A DNA stretch of 64,000 nucleotides from Candidatus Magasanikiibacteriota bacterium (lineage in GTDB: Bacteria > Patescibacteriota > Patescibacteriia > Magasanikbacterales > GWA2-37-8), in assembly GCA_041665405.1 (NCBI GenBank), contig JBAYIZ010000006.1, forward strand, positions 407-64,406. Reading direction: 5' to 3'. Below are positions 14,211 to 39,431 of the stretch, piece after piece. Both the position numbers and the translations under genes were made by a program. The notes under the pieces were generated by a model. The model was given only the letters and a program-made list of their open reading frames with translations. It was not told where the DNA came from and ran no database searches. Numbering within the stretch: the first letter of the stretch is position 1; the number at the start of each line of letters is the position of its first letter.

Positions 14211-15863
14211 ATGCAACTCGACGACAACAAAATTGAGAAAATTTTGCTTGACGGCAGTTATATTTCGGCGGATGACCTGAAAAAAGCACAACAATACGCC
14301 AAAGAGCATCATGCTACTTCATTGGTTTATTTACAAAACGAAGGGCTTATTAATCGCAATCTTTTGGGACAAGCAATTGCTGAATCACTTAATGTTGATT
14401 ACGCATCACTACCCGCACAACAACCAACCAAAGAACAAGTTTTGAAAATTCCCGAAGATATTGCCAACAAATATCATATTGTTTTATTTAAAGAAACACC
14501 AAAAGAAGTAGTTGTTGCTACCGACGATCCTGCGGCCACAGATTTATCCAAAGCATTAAAACAAATTTTCAAAACTCAAAAAATTTCTCTGGCTTATTCA
14601 TTGCCCGAAGATATTGATACTGCTTTTATTGCTTACCGCAAAACTTTGGAAACTCGTTTTGGTGATATTATAAAAAAACAAGAACACATTGCTCCGGAAA
14701 TTATTGATGAAATTATTGAAGATGCGATTGCCTACCACGCCTCGGATATTCACTTTGAACCACAAAGTAAAGAAGTGGTAATTCGTTTTCGTGTAGACGG
14801 CGTACTCAACGAAGCCGGCCGTATTCCCAAGGAATATTTTGGCAATGTTTTGAATCGTATCAAGGTACAATCACATTTACCGATCGATGAACATTATTCT
14901 GCTCAAGATGGGGCGATGCGTTTTGTCAAAGAAAACATGACGGCTGATTTGCGCGTGTCTATTTTGCCAACCTTGGACGGAGAAAAAGTGGTAATGCGTT
15001 TGTTGTCTCAATATGTGCGTGGTTTCAATTTACCGGATTTAGGATTATCGCCAGAAAATGAAATACTGTTAGAAAAAGCATACAAAAAACCGTTTGGGAT
15101 GATACTCATTACTGGCCCAACTGGCTCTGGAAAGACCACTTCTCTGTATGCACTACTTCGCATTTTGAATACTCCCAATGTAAACATCACCACCATTGAA
15201 GACCCGGTAGAATATCGAGTAGAAGGTATAAACCAAATTCAGGTTAACCCCAAAACCAATCTCACTTTTGCTGGCGGACTGCGTTCGATTGTACGCCAAG
15301 ATCCAGATATTATTTTGGTTGGTGAAATCCGCGACAATGAAACCGCTGAAATTGCCATCAATGCTTCACTCACAGGTCATTTATTATTATCCACTTTCCA
15401 TGCCAATGATTCTGCTACCGCTGTCCCGCGTTTACTCGACATGAAAATTGAACCATTCTTGTTGGCTTCAACTTTAGAATTACTTATCGCCCAGCGTTTG
15501 GTAAGAAAAATTTGTGAACAATGCAAAGTAAGTTCGGTGATAAAACAAATTGATATCAAAAAAACCGTGCCGGAATTAGCGAGAAAATATTTTACCGGCA
15601 AATCATATACTTTTTATAAAGGTAAAGGTTGTAGCGCGTGTGGCAATACTGGTTACAAAGGACGCCAAGCAATTTTTGAATTTATTCCCATCTCTCCGGA
15701 AATGAAAGAATTAATCTTAAAAAATCCTTCCACTCAAGAAATTTGGAAGGTTGCTCGCAAACAAGGATCAAAAACTTTGTTTGAAGATGGTTTAGAAAAA
15801 GTAAAAAACGGCATCACCACATTACAAGAATTATTACGCGTTGCAGAACCACCAAAATTTTAA
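14211..15863 (+). CDS. pilB: type IV pilus assembly ATPase (GspE/PilB family)
   Basis: Walker A (GPTGSGKTT), Asp box, His box, and a tetracysteine motif (CEQC...CSAC). Confidence 0.92.
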   Translation: MQLDDNKIEKILLDGSYISADDLKKAQQYAKEHHATSLVYLQNEGLINRNLLGQAIAESLNVDYASLPAQQPTKEQVLKIPEDIANKYHIVLFKETPKEVVVATDDPAATDLSKALKQIFKTQKISLAYSLPEDIDTAFIAYRKTLETRFGDIIKKQEHIAPEIIDEIIEDAIAYHASDIHFEPQSKEVVIRFRVDGVLNEAGRIPKEYFGNVLNRIKVQSHLPIDEHYSAQDGAMRFVKENMTADLRVSILPTLDGEKVVMRLLSQYVRGFNLPDLGLSPENEILLEKAYKKPFGMILITGPTGSGKTTSLYALLRILNTPNVNITTIEDPVEYRVEGINQIQVNPKTNLTFAGGLRSIVRQDPDIILVGEIRDNETAEIAINASLTGHLLLSTFHANDSATAVPRLLDMKIEPFLLASTLELLIAQRLVRKICEQCKVSSVIKQIDIKKTVPELARKYFTGKSYTFYKGKGCSACGNTGYKGRQAIFEFIPISPEMKELILKNPSTQEIWKVARKQGSKTLFEDGLEKVKNGITTLQELLRVAEPPKF

Positions 15864-15872
15864 AATACGACC

Positions 15873-17336
15873 ATGGCCAAAATAAAGGAGCCAAAAATTA
15901 TCAAGAAAAAAGATAGTCGGGTATCACGATTTGATACTTTTGGTTTGGGTGAAGAAAAAGAATATTTGGTAGAAAATCTTGGTGTGCTTTTGGCCTCGGG
16001 CATGGATATTATCGACGCTTTGGAATCAATAAAAATTGAAATCCGTTCTAAAATCCTAAAAAAAATAATTACCAACATCCAGGATGATATCAATGGTGGG
16101 TCTAGCTTGTGGGAAGCGTTGGAGAAATCATATCTTCTACCAAAGCATATTATTTCGCTGATAAAAATCGGCGAGTCCAGCGGACAACTCCAAGAAAGTT
16201 TGGCCGTCATTGTCGTTCAACAACAAAAAAACCGTTCGTTCCGTTCCAAAATTCGTTCGGCCATGATGTATCCCGTGTTTGTGATGGCGCTAGCACTGAT
16301 TGTCGGAATTGGAATTTCCTGGTTTATTTTACCGCGTCTAGCGACAGTGTTTTCACAATTAAATTTAGAGCTTCCATTGGTCACGCGAATTCTTATCGGC
16401 TTTGGGTCATTTTTATCTGCTGAGGGTGTTTGGGCCGTTCCCTCTTCTATCGCTACATTGCTAGTAATAATATATTTTATTTTTATTTTCAAACCGACAA
16501 AATTTTTAGGCCAAAAAATATTATTTCATTTACCAGGAATTAAAAAATTGATTTTAGAAATTGAGTTGTCGCGCATGGGGTATATTGTTGGGACATTATT
16601 ACAAGCCGGATTGCCAATAGTGGACACCATCGAATCCCTAAGCGACGCTTCGCCGTTGCATAATTATAAAAAACTATACTCGCAATTAGCTTTGTTTTTG
16701 AAAGATGGAAAATCATTTCAAGAATTTTTTGCCGCTAACAAAAAAATTAAAAAGATGATTCCAATTCCAGTACAAGGATTAATTGTGGTGGGTGAACGCT
16801 CTGGCAGATTGTCAGAAATTTTTCTAAATGTTGGAAAAACCTACGAGGAACGAACCGATTTAACTACGAAAAATTTGAGTGTGATTTTGGAACCAATTTT
16901 ATTGATAGTAGTTTGGCTCGGAGTAGTGGCTGTCGCTCTAGCGGTTATCCTTCCTATATATAGCTTGGTTGGAGGGCTAAACAAAAAACCGGCTGCCCGC
17001 CCACCAAGACCGGTGTCTACTATAATAACAGAAACAAACACCTCTACGATTGCCGTTGTGGATTTTTCTACCTCGACCACCAGCACAATCAAATTACCAA
17101 CCACCCCACCAGAAATAATGGCGGTGCCTGGTACACAAATGGTAACAATTTTGGATACTGGCATCGGCTATCTCAATGTCCGTAGCGAACCATCCACCCA
17201 AGCCAAAATTTTACAAAAGGTAAATGTTGGAACATCTTATCCATATTTAGATAAACAAAATGGTTGGTATAACATCATATTACCAGACGGCCAAATCGGT
17301 TGGGTCAGCGAACGCTACACCAAGCTCGTGCCGTAA
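15873..17336 (+). CDS. pilC: type IV pilus platform protein PilC/GspF fused to a C-terminal bacterial SH3 domain
   Basis: Two T2SSF-like repeats with TM helices, then a Thr/Pro linker and the SH3b-like sequence GYLNVRSEPS...GWYNIILPDGQIGWVSERY. Confidence 0.85.
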   Translation: MAKIKEPKIIKKKDSRVSRFDTFGLGEEKEYLVENLGVLLASGMDIIDALESIKIEIRSKILKKIITNIQDDINGGSSLWEALEKSYLLPKHIISLIKIGESSGQLQESLAVIVVQQQKNRSFRSKIRSAMMYPVFVMALALIVGIGISWFILPRLATVFSQLNLELPLVTRILIGFGSFLSAEGVWAVPSSIATLLVIIYFIFIFKPTKFLGQKILFHLPGIKKLILEIELSRMGYIVGTLLQAGLPIVDTIESLSDASPLHNYKKLYSQLALFLKDGKSFQEFFAANKKIKKMIPIPVQGLIVVGERSGRLSEIFLNVGKTYEERTDLTTKNLSVILEPILLIVVWLGVVAVALAVILPIYSLVGGLNKKPAARPPRPVSTIITETNTSTIAVVDFSTSTTSTIKLPTTPPEIMAVPGTQMVTILDTGIGYLNVRSEPSTQAKILQKVNVGTSYPYLDKQNGWYNIILPDGQIGWVSERYTKLVP

Positions 17337-17760
17337 AGGTTTCACTCTGCTTGAAGTGATGCTGGTGCTCGCTTTTTTTGCCTTGCTCACTAGTATGTCG
17401 GTCCCGATTATAAATTCTTTTCAGGCGGAAAATAGTGTGAATTTAACGACAGCAACGATCACCCAGTCTATTCACCGTGCTATTTTACTATCACAAGGAT
17501 TAATGTTCGATTCAGCTTGGGGGGTGAATTTAACCACTGGAAAAATTACTATTTTCAAAGGCACTTCTTTTGCGGCACGCGATATTTCGTTTGATGAATA
17601 TTATGAAACGCCTGCCAATATTACTATCGCCGGATTAACTGAGATTACTTTTGCTCCGCTCACTGGGCAGCCACAAAACATTGGTACCATCACCATTACT
17701 GCTCCAGACAACGATCCAAGAGAAATAAATATCAACGCCCGGGGAATGGTCGACTACTAA
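17260..17760 (+). CDS. pseudopilin with a prepilin-type N-terminal methylation motif (start uncertain)
   Basis: Motif KG|FTLLEVMLVLAFFALL is present. The only in-frame start upstream is ATG 17260. That gives a 26-aa leader and a 77-nt overlap with pilC. Confidence 0.65.
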   Translation: MVGITSYYQTAKSVGSANATPSSCRKGFTLLEVMLVLAFFALLTSMSVPIINSFQAENSVNLTTATITQSIHRAILLSQGLMFDSAWGVNLTTGKITIFKGTSFAARDISFDEYYETPANITIAGLTEITFAPLTGQPQNIGTITITAPDNDPREININARGMVDY

Positions 17761-17763
17761 TTT

Positions 17764-18234
17764 ATGCAAATATTAAAACAACAAAATAACCGTGGATTTT
17801 CTTTAATCGAAGTTATTCTAGCTAGCTCGGTTTTTGTTTTGTTGGGATTTATGTTGGTGGGTGGAATTGTATATGGCCAAGAAAGCTCGCTCAAAGGAGC
17901 TTTGCGATCCCGAGCGGCCATGTTGGCTGAGGAAGGGCTCGAGGCAGTGCGCAGTATTCGCAACCAAAATTTTTCTGATTTGAACGTTGGTACATTTGGT
18001 CTTTCTACTTCTACTGGACAATGGTCTCTGGTTGTAGCGGCGGAATATTCAGATAATTTTTTACGTGAAATCACTATCACAGACATAGATGTTCACCAAA
18101 AAAAAATTATTTCCAAAGTAATTTGGCTATCAGAAAATAATCTAGAAAATTCTGTTTCATTAACAACTTTTTTGACCGATTGGTCGTTTGTCACTCCTGA
18201 AAATTTGGATTCTGGTGTTTGTTCTACTTCATAA
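17764..18234 (+). CDS. pseudopilin (prepilin-type N-terminal cleavage/methylation domain)
   Basis: MQILKQQNNRG|FSLIEVILASSVFVLL. Confidence 0.8.
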   Translation: MQILKQQNNRGFSLIEVILASSVFVLLGFMLVGGIVYGQESSLKGALRSRAAMLAEEGLEAVRSIRNQNFSDLNVGTFGLSTSTGQWSLVVAAEYSDNFLREITITDIDVHQKKIISKVIWLSENNLENSVSLTTFLTDWSFVTPENLDSGVCSTS

Positions 18235-18236
18235 AT

Positions 18237-18731
18237 ATGAAAAATATTTACAATAAAAAATCTGGTTTTACACTTATCGAAGTTCTGCTATATGTGGGCA
18301 TTACTTCGTTTATGTTGTTAACTATAAACATTTTTATTGCCACTGTTTTACAATCACGGATAAAAAACCAAACTGTTTTGGTAGTTGAAAACAGCGGTGT
18401 TGCTATAATGCAAACTATCATACAGACATTGAGAAATGCGACACAAATAAATATTTCAAATCCACAAACAATTTCCGCCACTATGCCAGACGGCCAACAA
18501 ATAGTTTTTGGCCTAGAAAATCAAGTAATAAATTCAACTCAAAGTGGCACCATTTATCCACTAATACCAAGCGATGTTTCCGCCACCTCGCTACAGTTTA
18601 CTAATCTTGCACCCGCCGAAAAACCCGCTTCAATACAAATAATTTTTAATCTTGAGAACCTTAGTCCCGAAGGCAGAAACGAAACTACTTACTCACAAAC
18701 TTTTTATGATACTGCCACATTACGAAAATAA
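18237..18731 (+). CDS. pseudopilin (prepilin-type N-terminal cleavage/methylation domain)
   Basis: An internal ATG at 18237 gives MKNIYNKKSG|FTLIEVLLYVGITSFML. Confidence 0.8.
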   Translation: MKNIYNKKSGFTLIEVLLYVGITSFMLLTINIFIATVLQSRIKNQTVLVVENSGVAIMQTIIQTLRNATQINISNPQTISATMPDGQQIVFGLENQVINSTQSGTIYPLIPSDVSATSLQFTNLAPAEKPASIQIIFNLENLSPEGRNETTYSQTFYDTATLRK

Positions 18732-27342: not shown

Positions 27343-27364
27343 TACACAAATTCAACTAAACAAT

Positions 27365-27394
27365 ACCCACTTTCTAGACGAGGTGGGTTTTTGT
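27365..27394 (+). terminator. intrinsic terminator after fusA
   Basis: ACCCAC-N12-GTGGGT followed by TTTTTG. Confidence 0.7.
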
Positions 27395-27419
27395 TTATCA
27401 AACAATGATAATTACTAAA

Positions 27420-27567
27420 TTTGTATACACTAGTCTATACAAAAGTGGATAAGTGTGTGCACAACTCCACTCTTGTGTGTATAACTTTTAACTGTTCGCC
27501 TTCTTAGCCACCCTTTTCTTGGCTAACCACAAAAGAAACTCTGTTTGTATAGACTAGTGTATACAAA
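27420..27567. repeat. 148-bp unit bounded by perfect 24-nt inverted repeats (MITE-like element or paired operators)
   Basis: TTTGTATACACTAGTCTATACAAA (27420-27443) has its exact reverse complement TTTGTATAGACTAGTGTATACAAA at 27544-27567. Each copy is itself quasi-palindromic around ACTAGT. Confidence 0.6.
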
Positions 27568-27570
27568 TGG

Positions 27571-27599
27571 TTGACAAAACTCCGTTTGTGTGCTATACT
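27571..27599 (+). promoter_or_regulatory. strong sigma70-type promoter of the unassigned transcript
   Basis: TTGACA-17 nt-TATACT, starting 3 nt after the right inverted repeat. Confidence 0.65.
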
Positions 27600-27605
27600 T
27601 AAATT

Positions 27606-27937
27606 GTAGTTCTTTACTACAATTTATATGTCCACTTATCAGTGGACCAAACCCATCGAACTGCTAAATAGAGAAGGGGATTCACAACTGCTGTACAAAT
27701 ATATTGAAGCGGTAGTGGCGAATCCAAACTTCTTGTCCGGTAACCTCAATCTTTGCGTCAATCTGACCTTTTGTGTCAGAATTACGCCTGAGGTATTACC
27801 TTCAAGCGGTCGGGGGTATCACTGTCTTGGTCTATGACAGCTCATCTATATGGTGACTGCTCTGATCATGTACAGCGCCTATAAGGGCAAGAGCCTTAAA
27901 ACTATGTTTATCGGGTTACTATGCCCTTATTTTTTTA
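27606..27937 (+). ncRNA. candidate about 330-nt noncoding RNA (class not recognised)
   Basis: It is bounded by a consensus promoter and a hairpin (AAGGGCA...TGCCCTT) plus T-run. Local hairpins: AAATTGTAG/CTACAATTT, GTCCAC/GTGGAC, CTGAC/GTCAG. Long-range pairing is possible between GCTGTACA (27690-97) and TGTACAGC (27869-76). The only ORF (69 aa) has no SD. Confidence 0.4.
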
Positions 27938-28004
27938 TAAATATTTTTACTTGACTACATCCGCTAATCTGTTATAATTATCCCATTGAAAATAATTAAT
28001 ATAT

Positions 28005-28391
28005 ATGGCCAAAACGACTTTTAGCAAAGAATTTGTTACAAAAATAAAAACCTTACTACTAAAGGAAAAAGAGACCTTGGAAAAAGAACTAGGTAAATTT
28101 TCTCAAAAAAATAGTCGTGTAGCTGGAGATTATAATAGTAATTTCCCAGAATACGGTGACAAAGACGATGAGAATGCCGCTGAAGTTGCAGAATATGCCA
28201 CTGAACTTCCTTTAGAAGAAAGCTTTGAAAAAACTTTGCGCGATAACATCCAAGCCTTAACGCGCTTGGAAAATGATACTTACGGAATTTGCAAGTATTG
28301 CAAAAAACCAATCGATGAAAAACGATTGCTGGCTCGTCCAACTTCCAACGCTTGTATTACTTGTAAAAAAGCCATCACTCAAGAAATCTAA
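28005..28391 (+). CDS. DksA/TraR-family C4 zinc-finger protein
   Basis: C-terminal CKYCKKPI...CITCK. It has its own TTGACT-16-TATAAT promoter at about 27950-27977. Confidence 0.8.
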   Translation: MAKTTFSKEFVTKIKTLLLKEKETLEKELGKFSQKNSRVAGDYNSNFPEYGDKDDENAAEVAEYATELPLEESFEKTLRDNIQALTRLENDTYGICKYCKKPIDEKRLLARPTSNACITCKKAITQEI

Positions 28392-28392
28392 T

Positions 28393-28839
28393 ATGCAAAC
28401 AAAAGCCCGTCAGTTAATTATTTTTATTGGCGGCTTTTTTTTATTTTGTTTTGACCAAATATTAAAGTATTTTTCTTTACATACTCTCTCTGATGGTCAT
28501 GTGTTCTTCAACTTTTTTGGTTGGGGACCTTTTCAAAACCACGGGGTGGCTTTTAGTTTGCCGCTACCAAATACCCTTACTATAATATTCACTGCACCTA
28601 TAATTATAATTTTGTTGTGGTTTTTGATTAAATATTATTTTATTCCATCAAAACTAAATTTTTTTACAGGTCTGACATTAATTTTTTGGGGGGCTTTATC
28701 AAACCTAATCGACCGTGTTGTTTATCATGCGACCATTGATTATTTTGTGTTTGGAAGAGGGGTTATTAATTTGGCTGACATTCTAATCATTTTGGGTTTC
28801 CTTTTTTATTTATTACCATATAAATTTTTTAAACAATAA
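28393..28839 (+). CDS. lspA: lipoprotein signal peptidase (signal peptidase II)
   Basis: An internal ATG at 28393 gives a 148-aa, 4-TM protein with motifs NHGVAFS and NLIDRVVYHATIDYF. The track start at 28273 overlaps the upstream gene. Confidence 0.85.
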   Translation: MQTKARQLIIFIGGFFLFCFDQILKYFSLHTLSDGHVFFNFFGWGPFQNHGVAFSLPLPNTLTIIFTAPIIIILLWFLIKYYFIPSKLNFFTGLTLIFWGALSNLIDRVVYHATIDYFVFGRGVINLADILIILGFLFYLLPYKFFKQ

Positions 28840-28841
28840 CT

Positions 28842-30350
28842 ATGTTCGTCAAACTTCGGTCGGCGGCTCCAGTGGGGTTGAGCTGTTTGCCGGTGGAGGT
28901 GGAGGTTGACATCAACAAGGGACAAACAAATTTTGGAATAATCGGACTCACAGACACTTCAATCCAAGAGGCAAAAGATAGAATTCATTCGGCTATAAAA
29001 AACTCTGGGTATAAATTCCCTTTTAATTTTCGAATTTTAATTAATCTTGCTCCAGCAAATTTGAACAAAGAGGGGTCGGCTTATGATTTGCCGATGGCCG
29101 TAGGAATTGTGATGGCCAGTATTGGGTCTGAAAAAAATATTTCTGACACACTGATGATTGGTGAACTGGCGCTGGATGGTTCTTTGCGTCCTGTAAATGG
29201 GATTTTACCTATTGCTTTATTTGCCAAAGAAAAAAATATTAAAAACTTAATTGTTCCTTTGGAAAATGCGGATGAGGCTGTGTTGATAGAGGGAGTTTGT
29301 GTTTTGCCAGCAAAAAATTTGAAAGAGGTGGCGCAACATATTTTAGACGAATCTTTGATCGCTCCATATACAAAAACACCGGAAACAGCCAACGAAGAAA
29401 TTTTTAGTCTAGACATGTCACAAGTAAAAGGACAGGAATTCACCAAACGAGCGCTGGAAATAGCGGCCAGTGGGGGACATAATATTTTACTTTCTGGTCC
29501 ACCTGGTTCGGGAAAAACATTGTTAGCTCGCACTCTTCCAACAATTTTGCCCCCTCTTATTGAAAAAGAAATACTAGAAATTACTAAAATATATTCTATC
29601 GCCGGACTGCTTCGTGGTGGATTAATTAAAAAGCGCCCCTTTCGTTCGCCCCATCATTCTATTTCAAACGTGGCTCTGGTGGGTGGCGGAAAATATCCGC
29701 GTCCTGGAGAAATTTCTTTAGCCCATCGTGGGGTTTTGTTTTTGGATGAATTTCCAGAATTTAGCAGAAGTGTTTTGGAGGCCTTGAGACAACCGCTCGA
29801 AGATGGAACTATTTCGATTTCACGTGCACGTGGTAGCCTGCAATTTCCCGCTCAATTTATTTTGGTCGCCAGCCAAAATCCTTGTCCGTGTGGATATGCC
29901 AGCGACCCCGATCAGTTTTGCAATTGTTCTGCATCTACACTTTTAAAATATCAAAAGAAAATTAGCGGACCAATATTGGATCGCATTGATTTACATGTAG
30001 AAGTTCCAAGATTAAAATTTGAAAAACTTTCTTCTAATGAAAGTGGGGAGTTGTCTAGCGACATTCGAAAACGAGTAGAGTCGGCTAGGAAAATTCAGGC
30101 GACTCGTTTTTCAAATTTAAATATTATCACCAACGCAGAAATGGGAAATAATGAAATAAAAAAATTCTGTCAGCTAAATTCTGAATCTATAAATTTATTA
30201 GGTGAAGCGGTAGAAAAAATGCATTTGTCTGCTCGCGCTTATAATAGAATTTTGAAAATCTCGCGAACCATCGCAGACCTAGCAGGTGAACAAAATATTT
30301 CTTTAAACCATCTGGCTGAAGCTCTACAGTTTCGGGTGAAAACTCAATAA
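28842..30350 (+). CDS. comM: YifB/ComM-family Mg-chelatase-like AAA+ ATPase
   Basis: Lon-like N-terminal domain, Walker A GPPGSGKT, FLDEFPEF, and the C-terminal ChlI-C region. Confidence 0.9.
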   Translation: MFVKLRSAAPVGLSCLPVEVEVDINKGQTNFGIIGLTDTSIQEAKDRIHSAIKNSGYKFPFNFRILINLAPANLNKEGSAYDLPMAVGIVMASIGSEKNISDTLMIGELALDGSLRPVNGILPIALFAKEKNIKNLIVPLENADEAVLIEGVCVLPAKNLKEVAQHILDESLIAPYTKTPETANEEIFSLDMSQVKGQEFTKRALEIAASGGHNILLSGPPGSGKTLLARTLPTILPPLIEKEILEITKIYSIAGLLRGGLIKKRPFRSPHHSISNVALVGGGKYPRPGEISLAHRGVLFLDEFPEFSRSVLEALRQPLEDGTISISRARGSLQFPAQFILVASQNPCPCGYASDPDQFCNCSASTLLKYQKKISGPILDRIDLHVEVPRLKFEKLSSNESGELSSDIRKRVESARKIQATRFSNLNIITNAEMGNNEIKKFCQLNSESINLLGEAVEKMHLSARAYNRILKISRTIADLAGEQNISLNHLAEALQFRVKTQ

Positions 30351-35047: not shown

Positions 35048-36172
35048 TTATTGTCTTATCGGCATCACTATATAAACAAAACTGTCGTCGTTGGTTGGTA
35101 CAAAGAGACACGGGCTGTCTGCGTTTATCATTTTCAGCATACTGGTTTCTGATTTAATATTATTTAAACCATCCAAAACATATCGGTGGTTCAACATAAT
35201 AGCATTGTCGTCGCCGTTTGTTTCCGCACTTATTTCAGAACTATATTCACCCGTCTGGGAAGAAGTGGAGGAAAGTTTTACGACGCCTTCTTTACTACTA
35301 ATTATACAAGATATAGCGTTTACACCTATTGTGGTAAACAAACTGGCCATTTTAATTTCTTTACTCATCTTTCCAGTATCAAACATCGCAGATGTTTTGA
35401 ATTCTTTTGGTATAATTTGTGCATAGTCTGGATAATTTCCTTCTACTAAGCGAGAAACTAGTTGAATATTACCGTAGTGCATAGCAATTTGATTCTCTCC
35501 AACTAATATTCTAACGTTTTTTTCTTTTTCTTCATTATCCGCTAACGACAGTATGTGGATTATTTCTTGAGCAGTTCTACCCGGAACAATAATTTTAAAA
35601 TCTCCTTCTCCTTGTTGAATTTTAATTTTCTTTTCAGCCAATCTATAACTATCTGTAGCCGCCAATATTAAACCGGCATAATATGAAGTATTAAATCCAA
35701 AATACATTCCTGATAATTCCGGTCTTATTTCTGATTTAGCCAAAGAGGAAACAGTTTGTCCTAGTCCGCTCTTTAGTTGTTCTGCATCAAACAAAAATCC
35801 ATTTCCATCACTTACAGAAGGAATAACTGGAAATTCGTCAGCTGGTATTCCTTTTATTTTCGTTGATGATTTTCCACAGGTTATAACTAGCTCATTTTCT
35901 TTTAATTCCATTTCAATCTTTTCGTCAGAAAGTAAACTAACAAATTCACTAAGTGTTTTGGAAGGAACTGTAAACGAACCAGATTCATCCACTTTTGATC
36001 TCACGTGAGCAACTATTGCCAATTCTAGATTGGTTGCAATTATTTCTGTTTTTTGATCATCTGCTTTAATCAATATATTTCCCAGTATTGGAAGATTCAC
36101 ATTTTTATTTGCTATCCCTCCTACTATAGAAAGTGCTTTCGATAAATTATCTTTTGTACAAGTTATTTTCAT
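35048..36172 (-). CDS. dnaN: DNA polymerase III beta sliding clamp
   Basis: 374 aa, three-domain clamp pattern, located downstream of dnaA. Confidence 0.92.
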   Translation of the reverse strand: MKITCTKDNLSKALSIVGGIANKNVNLPILGNILIKADDQKTEIIATNLELAIVAHVRSKVDESGSFTVPSKTLSEFVSLLSDEKIEMELKENELVITCGKSSTKIKGIPADEFPVIPSVSDGNGFLFDAEQLKSGLGQTVSSLAKSEIRPELSGMYFGFNTSYYAGLILAATDSYRLAEKKIKIQQGEGDFKIIVPGRTAQEIIHILSLADNEEKEKNVRILVGENQIAMHYGNIQLVSRLVEGNYPDYAQIIPKEFKTSAMFDTGKMSKEIKMASLFTTIGVNAISCIISSKEGVVKLSSTSSQTGEYSSEISAETNGDDNAIMLNHRYVLDGLNNIKSETSMLKMINADSPCLFVPTNDDSFVYIVMPIRQ

Positions 36173-36447: not shown

Positions 36448-37842
36448 TTAGATATTATTGATATATAAACGCTGTCTTATTAATTCTAGTTCTTGTTTTA
36501 GTTTTAAATCATTATCTATTTCTTTGGTAATTTTTTCGTTGGCATGCATCGCTGTGGTGTGATCGCGTCCGCCCAGCTCATCGCCAATGGAAGGGAAAGA
36601 CATTTTAAGATCATTACGCAAAATATACATAATAATCTGGCGAGGATAAGAGAGCTTCTTTTCTCGGCTTTTACCACAAACATTTTCGGTGGAAACATTG
36701 AAAAAGGTGCAAACAGTCTCTATGGTCTGTTGTGATGTGACTGAACGTCTAGCCGAAGCAGAATCAAAACTAGAAAGAATTGATTTTACTGATTCGGCTG
36801 TCGGGGCCATATTTTTTAATTGATGATAAGCAATAATTTTATTTAGGGCGCCTTCAAGCTCACGAATGTTGCTCTGAACAATAGTAGCAACTGTATTTAG
36901 GGTTTTGTCGTCCAAAACAAAATTCTTTTCTTGGCACTTTTTGCCCAAAATAGCGACACGTGTTTCAAAATCAGGGGCAGAAACATCCACAATCATTCCC
37001 CACTCGAAGCGAGATTTGAGGCGATCCTCAAGGGCAGGGATGGCTTTTGGTGGGCGGTCAGAAGTTAAAATTACCTGCTTGTTTGCCTGGTGGAGCTCGT
37101 TAAAAGTATGAAAAAACGATTCTTGGCTGGCATCTTTGCCAGCGATGAACTGAATATCATCAATTAACAAAGCGTCGATAGTACGATAGCGGTTTTGGAA
37201 GTCTCTCGCTCCACCACTACGCAAAGAAGTAATAAAATCGTTGGTAAATTTCTCAGCACTAACATACAAGATATTGGTTTGAGGGTTTTTTTTCAACAAT
37301 TCATTGCCAACCGCCTGTAAAAGATGGGTTTTCCCCAAACCTACACCACCGTAGATAAACAGTGGATTGTAGGCCTCACCAGGACGGTCTGCCACTGCCT
37401 TGGCGGCGGTGAAAGCCAATTCGGAGCCTTTGCCAACCACAAAACTATCAAAATTGTATTTTGGGTTAATGGTAAATCCATGAGAAGCGACAGATTGGTG
37501 ACTAGTTTGTTGAGAGTATGAAGGTGTTTTTTCGTTTTCATGAGATACCGACGGGGAAGGAGGGGTGTTTATTGGTTGTTCCACAACATTTTTGATATTT
37601 TCGATCTTGTATTCCATCCTTCTAATAGGAAGGGCGGTGACCCTCTCTAAAGATTGGATGATTTGGTGGTGGTGTTTTTTTTCAATCCACGCCTGATTAA
37701 AGGTGTTTGGGACGCAGACAATAACATGGCCTTCTTGAAAACTAACAATACCAGTATTTTTGAACCAGGTGTTAAAATTCGCTTTGGAAATGGTTAATTC
37801 TAATTCAGATAAAACAGCCTGCCAAATTTCATTATTAGTCAT
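36448..37842 (-). CDS. dnaA: chromosomal replication initiator DnaA
   Basis: AAA+ Walker A GGVGLGKTHL, a sensor region, and the C-terminal DnaA signature (GGRDHTTAMHA). Confidence 0.96.
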   Translation of the reverse strand: MTNNEIWQAVLSELELTISKANFNTWFKNTGIVSFQEGHVIVCVPNTFNQAWIEKKHHHQIIQSLERVTALPIRRMEYKIENIKNVVEQPINTPPSPSVSHENEKTPSYSQQTSHQSVASHGFTINPKYNFDSFVVGKGSELAFTAAKAVADRPGEAYNPLFIYGGVGLGKTHLLQAVGNELLKKNPQTNILYVSAEKFTNDFITSLRSGGARDFQNRYRTIDALLIDDIQFIAGKDASQESFFHTFNELHQANKQVILTSDRPPKAIPALEDRLKSRFEWGMIVDVSAPDFETRVAILGKKCQEKNFVLDDKTLNTVATIVQSNIRELEGALNKIIAYHQLKNMAPTAESVKSILSSFDSASARRSVTSQQTIETVCTFFNVSTENVCGKSREKKLSYPRQIIMYILRNDLKMSFPSIGDELGGRDHTTAMHANEKITKEIDNDLKLKQELELIRQRLYINNI

Positions 37843-38017
37843 AGATTGATAGTTTTATAAAACTTTTATGTTATTTTAGCACAGAAACACATCTATTAAA
37901 ACGTCGGAAATTAGCTAAAAGTGCAAAATATGTGGATAAACTGGGGATACTGTGGATTGTTGACTAAAAGCCGTTTATATGGTAATATATTCAACATAAT
38001 ACATTAAATAAAAAGGT
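37843..38017. other. oriC candidate, part 2 / dnaA promoter region with DnaA boxes
   Basis: Perfect TGTGGATAA at 37931-37939 and TGTGGATTG at 37951-37959. Confidence 0.6.
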
Positions 38018-38197
38018 ATGGCAACTAAACGAACTTATCAACCAAGTAAAAAACATCGTGCAAAAGCACACGGATTCATGGAAAGAATGTCCACAAAGAA
38101 TGGACGGACAGTACTTTCTAGACGTCGTGCCAAGGGGCGCAAGAAGCTAACAGTGTCAGATGAAAAATCTGGAAAATTGTTAAGAAAAGCCAAATAA
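38018..38197 (+). CDS. rpmH: 50S ribosomal protein L34 with a C-terminal extension
   Basis: My own translation: [59 protein letters not shown] (59 aa). It is below the track cutoff. A hairpin terminator follows at 38202-38227. Confidence 0.9.
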
Positions 38198-38245
38198 TCT
38201 TAAACCCCCGATTGAATCGGGGTTTTTATTTGGTATAATATTGTT

Positions 38246-38641
38246 ATGTATAGAAAAGAAAACCATTTGACCAAGGTGCGAGATTTCAATCTCGTTTTAA
38301 AACAAGGATATTGGATAAATGATCTGTTTTTTAGTTTAAAAGTATTAGACTTAGCCAAAAAAGAGGCTTATTTTCCACCCAAAGAAGATAAGGATAAGTT
38401 CAAAAAACAGCTTAAGTTAGCGGTGAATGTTGGGTTAAAGGTGTCTAAAAGTGCTGTTGTGCGCAATCGGGCAAAAAGGCAGGTTGTGGAGGTGTTGAGG
38501 GCGATGATGGCCAAAGATGAAATATTGGAAGGGTATTATTTGTTTTTTGTGGCGAAGCCGAATATCAAGGAGAAAAGTTTTGCTGAGATAAGCGATGAAG
38601 TGAAACTATTATTGCAAAAGGCAAACGTGCTAAAGAGGTAA
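38246..38641 (+). CDS. rnpA: ribonuclease P protein component
   Basis: Position after rpmH. The RNR motif context is present (VVRNRAKRQVVEVLR). Confidence 0.85.
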   Translation: MYRKENHLTKVRDFNLVLKQGYWINDLFFSLKVLDLAKKEAYFPPKEDKDKFKKQLKLAVNVGLKVSKSAVVRNRAKRQVVEVLRAMMAKDEILEGYYLFFVAKPNIKEKSFAEISDEVKLLLQKANVLKR

Positions 38642-38644
38642 TTT

Positions 38645-38739
38645 AAAAAACTTTTATTTTATTTCGCTTTTTTTGCCCGCGAGGGCAAAAGGATGAAGCC
38701 GCGGCTTCATAACCCGCTCAATTAAAATAAAAGTTTTTT
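38645..38739 (+). ncRNA. candidate structured RNA / terminator-embedded repeat, copy 2
   Basis: A 17-bp outer stem (AAAAAACTTTTATTTTA/TAAAATAAAAGTTTTTT) encloses the core TTTCGCTTTTTTTGCCCGCGAGGGCAAAAGGATGAAGCCGCGGCTTCATAACCCGCTCAA. Confidence 0.5.
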
Positions 38740-38744
38740 AAATT

Positions 38745-39020
38745 ATGCCTAAAAACCTTCTTTATTACATTAAACAAGCAACTATATTTTTGGGAATGCC
38801 GATTGTTTTTTTGATTTGGGTTTATCAAAAAACATTTTCGCCGGATCATGGGCCGTTGAAAAGATTTTTTCCTTATGGGTATTGTCGGTTTTATCCTAGT
38901 TGTAGTGAATATGGAAAACAATCTATAAAAAAACACGGCCTGTTTGTTGGAACAATCAAGGCCGGGTGGAGATTGCTAAGATGTAATCCATGGAATAAAG
39001 GGGGGATGGATTTGCCGTGA
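38745..39020 (+). CDS. yidD: membrane protein insertion efficiency factor YidD
   Basis: YQKTFSP...CRFYPSCSEYGKQSIKKHG...G...RLLRCNPW is the canonical YidD pattern. Confidence 0.9.
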   Translation: MPKNLLYYIKQATIFLGMPIVFLIWVYQKTFSPDHGPLKRFFPYGYCRFYPSCSEYGKQSIKKHGLFVGTIKAGWRLLRCNPWNKGGMDLP

Positions 39021-39022
39021 TT

Positions 39023-39069
39023 GTCATTCCCGTGAAAGCTTGTCCCCACGAAAGTGGGGACGGGAATCC
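39023..39069. repeat. nested-hairpin palindromic mini-element (ATTCCCG family), intergenic
   Basis: GTCATTCCCGtgaaagcttGTCCCCACgaaaGTGGGGACGGGAATCC lies between the convergent stops of yidD and the DUF167 gene. Confidence 0.75.
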
Positions 39070-39073
39070 GTTC

Positions 39074-39301
39074 CTAATTTTCAATCTCAATCATTTTATT
39101 TTTGCTCGTGTTGCCGGACACGATTTTTATTTTGCTTTTTGAAATATTAAAATAATCGGCGAGTAATTTTATTAAGGCGTCGTTCGCTTTTCCATCGACG
39201 GGTGGAGCGGTGAGTTTTATTTTTAAAGTGCCATCGGACATTTTTCCGATGACTTCATTTTTTGAAGAGCGGGGGAGGACGCGGATTTTTAATTTTGGCA
39301 T
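39074..39301 (-). CDS. DUF167/YggU-family protein
   Basis: 75 aa. ...LKIKLTAPPVDGKANDALIKLLADYF...I..G..S..K is typical of UPF0235. Confidence 0.8.
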   Translation of the reverse strand: MPKLKIRVLPRSSKNEVIGKMSDGTLKIKLTAPPVDGKANDALIKLLADYFNISKSKIKIVSGNTSKNKMIEIEN

Positions 39302-39431
39302 ATGTTTTACGCTTTTGTAATATGAATTTTCTTGCGCTCAGACTTGCACCGAATTTATATTACTACAGACAGCCTAGTTTGGTTCTCGGTGCTTCAGACA
39401 ATTCGCGCGGCGAAAATTAATATTAAAAAAG

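What the first reader, a model, noticed from the sequence alone, without database searches (positions are those of the whole stretch)
27571..27937. Promoter-to-terminator unit of about 330 nt without a credible ORF, in the slot where tuf usually follows fusA
Seen:
- The unit runs from TTGACA-17-TATACT to AAGGGCA...TGCCCTT plus a T-run.
- Several local hairpins are present, along with a possible long-range helix GCTGTACA/TGTACAGC (27690-97 with 27869-76).
- The only ORF (27628-27837, 69 aa) has no SD and an implausible, Cys/Leu-rich sequence.
- I looked for hallmark strings and found none: RNase P RNA (GAGGAAAGUCCGG, ACAGAANCCGGCUUA), tmRNA (tRNA-like ends, a tag ending in AA), SRP RNA (GGAA-capped helix 8, AGCAGC), and T-box (AGGGUGGNACCGCG).

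Established knowledge: rpsL-rpsG-fusA is normally followed by tuf. Here fusA ends with its own terminator.

Inference: this is an unclassified, probably abundant sRNA, or a divergent housekeeping RNA that sequence motifs alone cannot reveal.
Basis: partly seen in the sequence, partly recalled or inferred. Interest (0 to 1): 0.65.

Follow-up and report, generated by a model that had tools for sequence, protein, structure and literature searches.

The report
Unclassified structured RNA gene beside dksA
This is a real gene for a folded, non-protein-coding RNA of about 330 bases, with its own promoter and terminator, found only in one small group of ultra-small (CPR/Magasanikbacteria) bacteria; it matches no known RNA family, always sits just upstream of the RNA-polymerase-factor gene dksA, and its function is unknown.

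Summary
The promoter-to-terminator unit is real. The window comes from a Candidatus Magasanikbacteria (Patescibacteria/CPR) genome. I found 15 distinct homologues, 41-87% identical to the window copy. All keep the TTGACA-17-(TG)TATAmT promoter, a 3-way-junction core, a variable 3' domain and a long intrinsic terminator.

- **Structure:** covariation supports the fold. In the core, 31 of 57 pairs change on both sides and 83% of cells pair, against about 40% when partners are slid.
- **Coding:** the 69-aa ORF is broken by indels in relatives.
- **Known families:** no Rfam family matches, even at E<10, and ARAGORN finds no tmRNA.
- **Context:** the link to fusA/tuf is incidental. The upstream neighbour varies, but the RNA is always upstream of a TraR/DksA-family gene (dksA-lspA-comM) on the same strand.
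- **dksA promoter:** dksA keeps its own promoter after the terminator. One relative has dksA with neither the RNA nor its upstream elements.
- **Upstream module:** the RNA promoter carries two 24-bp palindromes, DnaA-box-like 9-mers and a further inverted repeat, found nowhere else in the DNA held.

Best reading: a new, lineage-restricted, independently transcribed structured sRNA, probably trans-acting. A cis-acting leader role is the main rival.

The parts
27420..27443 (.). Pal1: 24-bp palindrome TTTGTATACACTAGTCTATACAAA, the upstream operator-like site of the RNA gene module.
   Evidence: Two copies lie upstream of the RNA promoter in all 15 loci. None occurs elsewhere in the window or in the 1.56 Mb of held loci. 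It is absent from L102, which lacks the RNA.
27444..27484 (.). DnaA-box-like 9-mers: AGTGGATAA at 27444-52 and TGTGTATAA at 27476-84. Each has one mismatch to TGTGGATAA/TTATCCACA.
   Evidence: The box directly abutting Pal1 is a perfect TGTGGATAA in 10 of 15 loci. There are 2-5 boxes in L090, L092, L094, L099 and L101. Identification as a DnaA box rests on the consensus recalled from knowledge, not on a binding test.
27504..27526 (.). Inverted repeat TTAGCCA-N9-TGGCTAA between the DnaA-like boxes and Pal2.
   Evidence: A GGCTAA/TAGCC motif recurs at this place in the homologous loci. This was read from the sequences and not tested statistically.
27544..27567 (.). Pal2: the second copy of the 24-bp palindrome (TTTGTATAGACTAGTGTATACAAA), ending 3 nt before the -35 hexamer.
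27571..27599 (+). Promoter of the RNA: TTGACA, 17 nt, TG-n-TATACT (extended -10).
   Evidence: 11 of 12 consensus matches. TTGACAA and TGnTAT are invariant in the 13-sequence alignment and present in L100 and L101.
27604..27647 (+). 5' hairpins H1 (27604-27622) and H2 (27630-27647) of the transcript. The predicted start is about 27605.
   Evidence: H1 shows an A-U to U-A change in L010. The H2 pair at columns 65/78 is CG in 8 sequences, UA in 5 and AU in 1. The start site is inferred from the -10 position.
27650..27819 (+). Conserved three-way-junction core. P3 is 27651-65 with 27805-17 and contains an invariant U-G pair. P4 is hairpin 27671-27734. P5 is hairpin 27739-27800. The junction sequences GUCC and UUCAA are conserved.
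   Evidence: Covariance model R1 scores 75-181 bits in all 15 homologues, on the + strand only. It finds nothing in 1.34 Mb of other loci.
27820..27881 (+). Variable 3' domain. It holds hairpin H6 (CUGUC 27822-26 / GACAG 27836-40), hairpin H7 (CAUC 27843-46 / GGUG 27852-55), and a single-stranded stretch with element U (27859-67) and UGUACAGCGCC.
   Evidence: H7 shows A-U/G-C and U-A/C-G exchanges. The H7 loop is a GNRA tetraloop in L010, L096, L087, L100 and L101. The exact fold is unresolved because alternative pairings of 'ACAG' exist.
27882..27936 (+). Long intrinsic terminator hairpin (27882-27929) plus a U7 tract. The interior sequence CCUUAAAA...UUUAUCGGG is conserved.
   Evidence: 18 pairs, 87% of cells paired, 7 pairs with changes on both sides. 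Hairpin energy is -13.6 to -22.3 kcal/mol in all 15 homologues.
27951..27978 (+). Separate promoter of the dksA-like operon: TTGACT, 16 nt, TATAAT.
   Evidence: An equivalent promoter lies after the terminator in the other loci. It is also present in L102, which has no RNA.
28005..28391 (+). TraR/DksA-family C4 zinc-finger gene, the conserved downstream neighbour. It is followed by lspA (28273-28839) and the YifB/ComM-type ATPase gene (28842-30350).
   Evidence: for the protein families. Synteny is shown.

Best explanation
The unit is the gene of a previously unclassified structured non-coding RNA of about 330 nt. So far it is seen only in Magasanikbacteria-like Patescibacteria.

Shown:
- It is transcribed on the + strand from its own near-consensus sigma-70 promoter with an extended -10.
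- It is ended by its own strong intrinsic terminator.
- It folds into one or two 5' hairpins, a conserved three-way-junction core, a variable hairpin domain and a long terminator hairpin.
- It does not encode a protein.
- Its promoter carries a dedicated upstream module made of two 24-bp palindromes, DnaA-box-like 9-mers and a further inverted repeat.
- It is kept directly upstream of, and co-oriented with, the dksA-lspA-comM operon. That operon has its own promoter, and in one relative it exists without the RNA.

Inferred:
- The RNA is made as a discrete, stable transcript, capped by a 5' stem and a 3' terminator stem.
- Its synthesis is controlled at initiation by a DNA-binding protein on the palindromes, and possibly by DnaA.
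- It acts in trans through its folded core as a partner for a protein, or possibly a ligand, rather than as a simple antisense RNA.
- Because its one constant neighbour encodes an RNA-polymerase secondary-channel factor, a role in modulating the transcription machinery (functionally like 6S or Ms1 RNA) is the most specific guess. Nothing here shows this.
For: Real and conserved:
- 15 distinct homologues were found, 41-87% identical to the window copy.
- Promoter and terminator are conserved in all of them.

Structured:
- The + strand folds with z = -8.8.
- Core: 83% of cells pair against 36-49% when partners are slid. 31 of 57 pairs change on both sides against a shuffled mean of 17.2 (0 of 500 shuffles as high). 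Covariation score is 0.239 against 0.151.
- Terminator and 3' hairpins: covariation score 0.217 against 0.112, 0 of 500 shuffles as high.

Non-coding:
- The ORF is disrupted by 1-, 2- and 3-nt indels in L010.
- No conserved ORF exists across the homologues, and L097 has no ORF of 30 aa or more.
- Pfam gives no hit for the 69-aa ORF.

Not a known family:
- cmscan is negative at gathering score and at E<10 for the window and seven homologues.
- ARAGORN finds no tmRNA.
- No similarity in the phage or plasmid collections or in IMG/VR.

Independent unit:
- dksA has its own promoter after the terminator.
- The terminator-to-ATG distance runs from about 70 nt to about 420 nt. L100 has an intervening 79-aa ORF and L098 a spacer of about 250 nt.
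- L102 has dksA with its promoter but no RNA and no palindromes.

Linkage to dksA:
- The upstream neighbour is fusA, a methyltransferase, an MFS transporter, a cold-shock gene or an LTD protein, depending on the locus.
- dksA is always downstream.
Against: - No expression data were available, so transcript ends, abundance and stability are inferred from sequence signals only.
- Twelve of the 15 loci were found through dksA homologues. 'Always next to dksA' is therefore partly built into the sampling, and RNA copies elsewhere in genomes could not be searched for.
- Strict co-orientation and adjacency to one operon is the classic signature of a cis-regulatory leader rather than a trans-acting RNA.
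- The 5' arm of the terminator is partly complementary to an upstream element (75% of cells paired against 32-44% when slid). This could form an antiterminator.
- The covariation alignment A7 was fitted to the model, so its counts lean towards the structure.
- The proposed link to RNA polymerase rests on gene neighbourhood alone. The fold does not resemble 6S RNA.
Confidence: 0.5

Rival explanations
1. It is a cis-acting leader (riboswitch or protein-dependent attenuator) of the dksA-lspA-comM operon. The three-way-junction core would sense a ligand or protein. An antiterminator between element U (27859-67) and the 5' arm of the terminator would then let transcription from the strong upstream promoter read into dksA. 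The dksA promoter would provide only basal expression.
For: - The RNA is invariably directly upstream of dksA and co-oriented with it, despite changing upstream neighbours.
- The U / 5'-arm complementarity is 75% paired against 32-44% in slid controls. One column shows A-U, C-G, U-A, G-C and U-G.
- The predicted antiterminator reaches -14.6 kcal/mol in L084 and L086, and -13.6 in L099, where it equals the terminator.
Against: - A near-consensus promoter sits between the terminator and dksA in the loci examined. L102 expresses dksA from it without any RNA.
- Antiterminator potential is weak or absent in the window (-8.5), L090, L092, L010, L100 and L101 (-3 to -7). The terminator is -13.6 to -22.3 in every homologue.
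- Covariation for the U / 5'-arm helix is marginal: 0.180 against 0.144, with 31 of 500 shuffles as high.
- The spacing to dksA is variable, and L100 has another ORF in between.
- A variable domain of about 60 nt separates the conserved core from the terminator.
- The elaborate upstream operator module points to control at initiation.
Confidence: 0.22
2. It is a highly diverged housekeeping RNA, namely a functional 6S-type RNA-polymerase-binding RNA, or RNase P, tmRNA or SRP RNA, that sequence and structure models fail to recognise in this lineage.
For: - Strong constitutive-looking promoter, a size of about 330 nt and a stable fold.
- It neighbours an RNA-polymerase-binding factor gene.
- No 6S, RNase P, tmRNA or SRP gene lies in this 64-kb window. 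This is expected by chance in any case.
Against: - No Rfam hit at E<10 in eight divergent members, and ARAGORN is negative.
- The 5' and 3' ends do not pair with each other, whereas 6S, RNase P, SRP and tmRNA all close with an end-to-end helix.
- There is no tRNA-like domain, no conserved tag frame and no P4-type motifs.
- The family was found only in a narrow clade. It is absent from a close relative's dksA locus (L102) and from the fusA loci of other CPR. A universal RNA would be expected to be traceable more widely.
Confidence: 0.1
3. It is an origin- or DnaA-linked transcript. The DnaA-box-like cluster flanked by palindromes would be a replication-control element (part of oriC or a DnaA-titrating or DnaA-regulated site). 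The strongly transcribed structured RNA would serve replication control, for example by transcriptional activation or as an RNA cofactor, rather than gene regulation.
For: - A conserved TGTGGATAA abuts Pal1 in all loci, with up to five boxes in both orientations.
- The locus lies 7-10 kb from dnaN-dnaA in the window, L086, L087 and L010. It falls within the broad cumulative GC-skew minimum.
- In L097-L101 the module sits at a divergent gene-orientation switch.
Against: - In the window and its closest relatives the highly expressed rpsL-rpsG-fusA genes run towards the element. The gene-strand switch is at about 11.5 kb, not at 27.4 kb.
- A more conventional oriC candidate exists upstream of dnaA: a 1.6-kb gap with a perfect box at 37931.
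- The window copy has only two imperfect boxes.
- The window-wide excess of DnaA-box-like 9-mers is modest: 33 found against 19.5 expected.
- DnaA also acts as an ordinary transcription factor (own knowledge), which would explain the boxes more simply.
Confidence: 0.08
4. It is a small protein gene, the 69-aa ORF at 27628-27837.
For: An ATG-initiated ORF of 69 codons exists in the window.
Against: - The start codon and reading frame are not conserved. Frameshifting indels occur in L010.
- No equivalent ORF exists in the 14 other homologues, and L097 has none of 30 aa or more.
- There is no Pfam hit.
- Substitutions follow base-pairing rather than codon position.
Confidence: 0.01

Closest known systems
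6S RNA (SsrS) and mycobacterial Ms1 RNA
   Same: It is an independently transcribed, stable, highly structured RNA of a few hundred nucleotides made from a strong sigma-70 promoter. Here it is also genomically tied to an RNA-polymerase-binding factor gene. Ms1 is of similar size, about 300 nt (own knowledge).
   Different: - There is no rod-like fold with a central bubble and no pairing of the 5' end with the 3' end. The core is a three-way junction.
- No Rfam 6S hit appears at E<10.
- RNA-polymerase binding is untested.
Orphan large structured bacterial ncRNAs found by comparative genomics (raiA motif RNA, OLE, ROOL, GOLLD)
   Same: - It is a multi-helix, covariation-supported fold of unknown function with a narrow phylogenetic range and conserved junction nucleotides.
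- Some members carry GNRA-capped hairpins.
- It has a conserved gene neighbourhood, as raiA and OLE do (own knowledge; PMC12286853 and PMC12054373 describe this class of RNAs).
   Different: - No sequence or structure match to any of them in Rfam 15.
- It is smaller than OLE, ROOL and GOLLD.
- It occurs in Patescibacteria.
- It carries its own elaborate promoter-operator module.
Riboswitch-containing stand-alone sRNAs (EutX/Rli55) and transcription-attenuating leaders such as the T-box upstream of B. subtilis ileS-ylyA-lspA
   Same: - It is a structured RNA ending in an intrinsic terminator directly upstream of an operon.
- It has a possible alternative pairing of the terminator's 5' arm.
- The downstream pair, a DksA-like gene followed by lspA, recalls the Bacillus order ylyA-lspA behind a T-box-controlled ileS (own knowledge).
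   Different: - No T-box or other riboswitch model matches.
- The antiterminator is not conserved across the family.
- The downstream operon keeps its own promoter and can exist without the RNA.

Membership tests
Any Rfam 15 family (including 6S, tmRNA, RNase P classes A and B, small and large SRP, T-box, known riboswitches, raiA, OLE, ROOL, GOLLD) | A score against the family covariance model at or above the gathering threshold. | tested here: not met
   - Searches (window; seven divergent homologues) give no hit on the RNA, even at E<10.
- The only hits in 27350-28050 are spurious microRNA or snoRNA matches to the upstream palindromes.
tmRNA | A tRNA-like domain formed by the 5' and 3' ends, plus a tag reading frame. 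| tested here: not met
   - ARAGORN finds none, and it also covers permuted forms.
- The ends form separate hairpins.
- No conserved reading frame exists.
6S RNA | A long irregular hairpin closed by 5'-3' end pairing, with a large central bubble. | tested here: not met
   MFE and consensus folds give 5' hairpins, a three-way junction and a 3' terminator.
6S RNA | Binding of RNA-polymerase holoenzyme and templating of product RNA. | not testable with these tools
   This needs biochemistry. Only the dksA neighbourhood hints at an RNA-polymerase link.
RNase P RNA | A P1 closing helix and a P4 pseudoknot with the conserved CR-I and CR-V sequences. | tested here: not met
   - No RNase P model hit.
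- No end-to-end helix.
Independently transcribed structured sRNA gene | Its own promoter and its own intrinsic terminator, both conserved among relatives. | tested here: met
   Both are present in 15 of 15 homologues.
Independently transcribed structured sRNA gene | A secondary structure supported by compensatory changes, and no conserved ORF. | tested here: met
   for covariation. for the ORF not being conserved.
Independently transcribed structured sRNA gene | A discrete transcript detected in vivo. | not testable with these tools
   No expression data were available.
Cis-regulatory leader (riboswitch or attenuator) | It lies in the 5' untranslated region of the regulated gene, with no promoter between the element and the gene. 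| tested here: not met
   - A TTGACT-16-TATAAT promoter lies between the terminator and dksA. It is conserved and is used alone in L102.
- L100 has an ORF in between.
Cis-regulatory leader (riboswitch or attenuator) | A conserved, mutually exclusive pair of terminator and antiterminator. | tested here: inconclusive
   - Complementarity is above the slid controls, but covariation is marginal.
- The antiterminator is energetically weak or absent in 6 of 15 sequences.
Protein-coding gene | A reading frame conserved among homologues. | tested here: not met

The most novel reading that the evidence does not exclude
The RNA would be a new class of complex-folded functional RNA specific to a CPR lineage. 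It could be a protein-binding regulator of the transcription machinery that works with DksA, or a catalytic or ligand-binding RNA. Its synthesis would be gated by DnaA and a palindrome-binding repressor in the origin-proximal region, so that replication-initiation status is coupled to global transcription in bacteria with very few regulators.
Probability: 0.12. Interest if true: 0.85.

Novelty: new variant of a known kind. Interest (0 to 1): 0.6.

Why it matters
- **Rarity.** Patescibacteria/CPR bacteria have tiny genomes and few known regulators, and almost no lineage-specific non-coding RNAs have been described for them. Covariation-supported RNAs longer than 300 nt with multi-helix junctions are rare, and such RNAs have repeatedly turned out to be ribozymes, riboswitches or ribonucleoprotein scaffolds.
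- **Handles for experiment.** This RNA has a fixed partner operon (dksA-lspA-comM), a dedicated operator module with DnaA-box-like sites, and a graded series of homologues. Together these give concrete starting points for finding its function and its regulator.
- **Annotation.** The region is currently liable to be called as spurious ORFs. For example, 93- and 107-aa 'genes' are called over the RNA in L088, L099 and L100.

Tried and rejected
- **Rfam.** Scans at gathering score and at E<10 on the window and on seven homologues gave nothing relevant. ARAGORN was also negative.
- **Other CPR fusA loci.** Eighty loci fetched with EF-G contained only one homologue, L010. The others carry a small conserved ORF and tuf after fusA, and neither the covariance model nor nhmmer finds the RNA there.
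- **Metagenome pattern scan.** It gave 7 hits. Three are true homologues (L084, L086, L087). Four are chance matches inside unrelated sequence (L081-L083, L085) and were discarded.
- **Phage, plasmid and IMG/VR searches.** No match.
Rejected for lack of covariation, in favour of a local helix.
- **Antiterminator idea.** Kept only as a rival because it is not conserved across the family.
- **Origin of replication at the palindrome module.** Considered, and judged unlikely for the window because of gene orientation and the dnaA-proximal gap.
- **Similarity to a T-box leader (Bacillus ileS-ylyA-lspA).** A lead from memory. No model hit and no T-box sequence.
- **Literature searches.** Searches for CPR/Patescibacteria structured RNAs and for a dksA-associated RNA found no description of this element.
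- **3' domain.** The exact fold of 27820-27881 could not be settled. 'ACAG' at 27873-76 can pair with three different partners.

Full report
**Source and observation**

The window belongs to a Candidatus Magasanikbacteria (Patescibacteria/CPR) genome. Its DksA-like protein is 100% identical to a protein that NCBI names from such a MAG. The nearest EF-G relatives are Patescibacteria, Magasanikbacteria and Falkowbacteria MAGs.

- The promoter is TTGACA (27571-76), a 17-nt spacer, then TATACT (27594-99), preceded by TG. This is 11 of 12 consensus matches.
- A long hairpin (27882-27929) is followed by seven T.
- fusA has its own terminator at 27365-88.
- A single 69-codon ORF lies at 27628-27837.
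- The + strand RNA (27600-27937) folds at -118.1 kcal/mol, z = -8.8 against shuffles. The - strand gives z = -5.3.

**Not a known RNA and not a protein**

- Rfam 15 finds only two tRNAs in the whole window at gathering score.
- With permissive filters on 27350-28050 it finds only spurious microRNA and snoRNA matches caused by upstream palindromes.
- Seven divergent homologues also give no hit on the RNA at E<10.
- ARAGORN finds no tmRNA.
- The ORF has no Pfam hit.
- In the closest independent relative (L010) the ORF is broken by 1-, 2- and 3-nt indels. No frame is shared among the 15 homologues, and L097 has no ORF of 30 aa or more.

**Homologues**

| Route | Loci with the RNA |
|---|---|
| EF-G-based scan of species genomes | L010 |
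| Two-block DNA pattern scan of metagenomes (four other hits were chance matches) | L084, L086, L087 |
| Contigs encoding homologues of the downstream DksA-like protein | L088, L090, L092, L094, L096-L101 |

- nhmmer profiles detected the RNA in all of these except L102.
- Identity to the window copy falls from 87% to 41%.
- A covariance model of the core (R1, 170 positions) scores 75-181 bits in all 15 loci, on the + strand only. It finds nothing in 1.34 Mb of other loci, including 18 other CPR fusA loci.
- Phage, plasmid and IMG/VR collections contain nothing similar.

**Structure**

- The conserved architecture is one or two 5' hairpins, a three-way junction, a variable domain with two hairpins, and the terminator hairpin.
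- In the junction, P3 is 27651-65 with 27805-17 and includes an invariant U-G pair. P4 is 27671-27734 and P5 is 27739-27800.
- On the model-guided core alignment, 83% of cells pair, against 36-49% when partners are slid. 31 of 57 pairs change on both sides, against 17.2 in shuffles (0 of 500 as high). The covariation score is 0.239 against 0.151. This alignment leans towards the model.
- An independent MAFFT alignment of the 3' part gives the same picture for hairpins H6 and H7 and the terminator: 0.217 against 0.112, 0 of 500 as high.
- The middle of P5 changes sequence completely between groups yet stays paired. This was read from the sequences.
The competing local extension of P4 does.

**Context**

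- The fusA/tuf framing is incidental. In other CPR genomes fusA is followed by a small conserved ORF and tuf. The window holds no tuf at all.
- Among RNA-bearing loci the upstream gene varies. It is fusA, a methyltransferase, an MFS transporter, a cold-shock gene with an inverted rpsL-rpsG-fusA, or a large LTD-domain protein.
- The downstream gene is always the TraR/DksA-family zinc-finger gene, followed by lspA and usually the YifB/ComM ATPase gene.
- dksA keeps its own near-consensus promoter after the RNA terminator.
- The distance from terminator to ATG ranges from about 70 nt to about 420 nt. L100 has a 79-codon ORF in between.
- L102 has dksA behind that promoter with no RNA at all.

**Upstream module**

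Every RNA promoter is preceded by:
- two copies of a 24-bp palindrome (window 27420-43 and 27544-67);
- a 9-mer equal or nearly equal to the DnaA-box consensus directly after the first palindrome, with up to five such boxes in some loci;
- an inverted repeat TTAGCC...GGCTAA.

The palindrome occurs nowhere else in the window or in the 1.56 Mb of held DNA. It is missing from L102. It therefore belongs to the RNA gene and not to dksA.

dnaN and dnaA lie 7-10 kb downstream. The region sits in a broad GC-skew minimum. Gene orientation, together with a 1.6-kb gap upstream of dnaA that contains a perfect DnaA box, makes that gap the more likely oriC.

**Interpretation**

Shown: this is a conserved, structured, non-coding transcription unit with its own regulated promoter and terminator. 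It is restricted, as far as could be searched, to a Magasanikbacteria-like clade, and it is genomically coupled to dksA.

Inferred: it is a discrete, stable, trans-acting RNA whose folded core binds a protein or ligand. A role connected with RNA polymerase and DksA is the most specific guess and rests only on neighbourhood.

The main rival is a cis-acting attenuator.
- For it: the 5' arm of the terminator is complementary to an upstream element more often than slid controls allow (75% against 32-44%). One column shows five different pair types.
- Against it: the covariation is marginal, and the predicted antiterminator is weak or absent in six homologues while the terminator is always strong. 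The internal promoter and the RNA-less L102 also argue against dependence of dksA on read-through.

A diverged housekeeping RNA, an origin-linked RNA and a protein gene are each less likely. The reasons are given under the rival explanations.

**Limits**

- No expression data were available.
- Most loci were reached through dksA, so RNA copies elsewhere would have been missed.
- The fold of 27820-27881 is unresolved.
- Literature searches found no prior description. The library is incomplete, however, and Rfam holds only curated families.

Noticed in passing
window 27420-27567, and the equivalent stretch in L010, L084, L086-L092 and L094-L101: Two copies of a 24-bp perfect or near-perfect palindrome TTTGTATACAC-TA-GTGTATACAAA lie 103-185 bp apart. 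They bracket DnaA-box-like TGTGGATAA 9-mers and a TTAGCC...GGCTAA inverted repeat. They are found only upstream of the RNA promoter, which suggests an unknown repressor or activator site, possibly together with DnaA.
   Followed up: partly
window 37843-39431: A 1.6-kb stretch without a long ORF lies upstream of dnaA (36448-37842, - strand; dnaN is at 35048-36172). It holds a perfect DnaA box at 37931-39, and cumulative GC skew rises from about 36 kb onwards. This is the probable oriC. It was not examined for further boxes, an AT-rich unwinding element or small genes such as rpmH and rnpA.
   Followed up: no
window 11500-34000: GC skew is flat across about 23 kb in which nearly all genes are on the + strand, including rpsL-rpsG-fusA. 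These genes run towards the presumed origin near dnaA. This may reflect a past inversion next to the origin. In L098 rpsL-rpsG-fusA are on the opposite strand relative to dksA.
   Followed up: no
L002 12130-12438, L004 12087-12419, L006 12207-12452, L007 3897-4319, L009 12750-13124, L001 4073-4456: Many other CPR genomes carry a conserved small ORF of about 80-140 aa between fusA and tuf. Its N-terminus reads like M..LKK.I.L.KKTGDR.I..D....V.M.L.EYE. Its function is unknown and it is absent from the window.
   Followed up: no
L088 3682-3963 (-), L099 2709-2990 (+), L100 2566-2889 (+): Public gene calls of 93-107 aa overlap the RNA or its flank in several metagenome records. Those over the RNA are probably spurious ORF predictions. 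The 79-codon ORF at L100 2650-2889, between the RNA and dksA, looks like a real small protein but has no family hit.
   Followed up: partly
L098 3690-4664: An IS110-family transposase gene is inserted between dksA and lspA in this relative. In L103 (10842-15361) six genes, including WYL, NYN, HNH and a C39 peptidase, are inserted between lspA and comM. The dksA-lspA-comM operon therefore tolerates insertions.
   Followed up: no
window 14211-18731: Genes for a type IV pilus or type II secretion ATPase and platform protein (T2SSE, and T2SSF with a C-terminal SH3 domain) are followed by three small ORFs without family hits, which may be pilins. Together with comM this fits the competence and pilus repertoire typical of CPR.
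   Followed up: no
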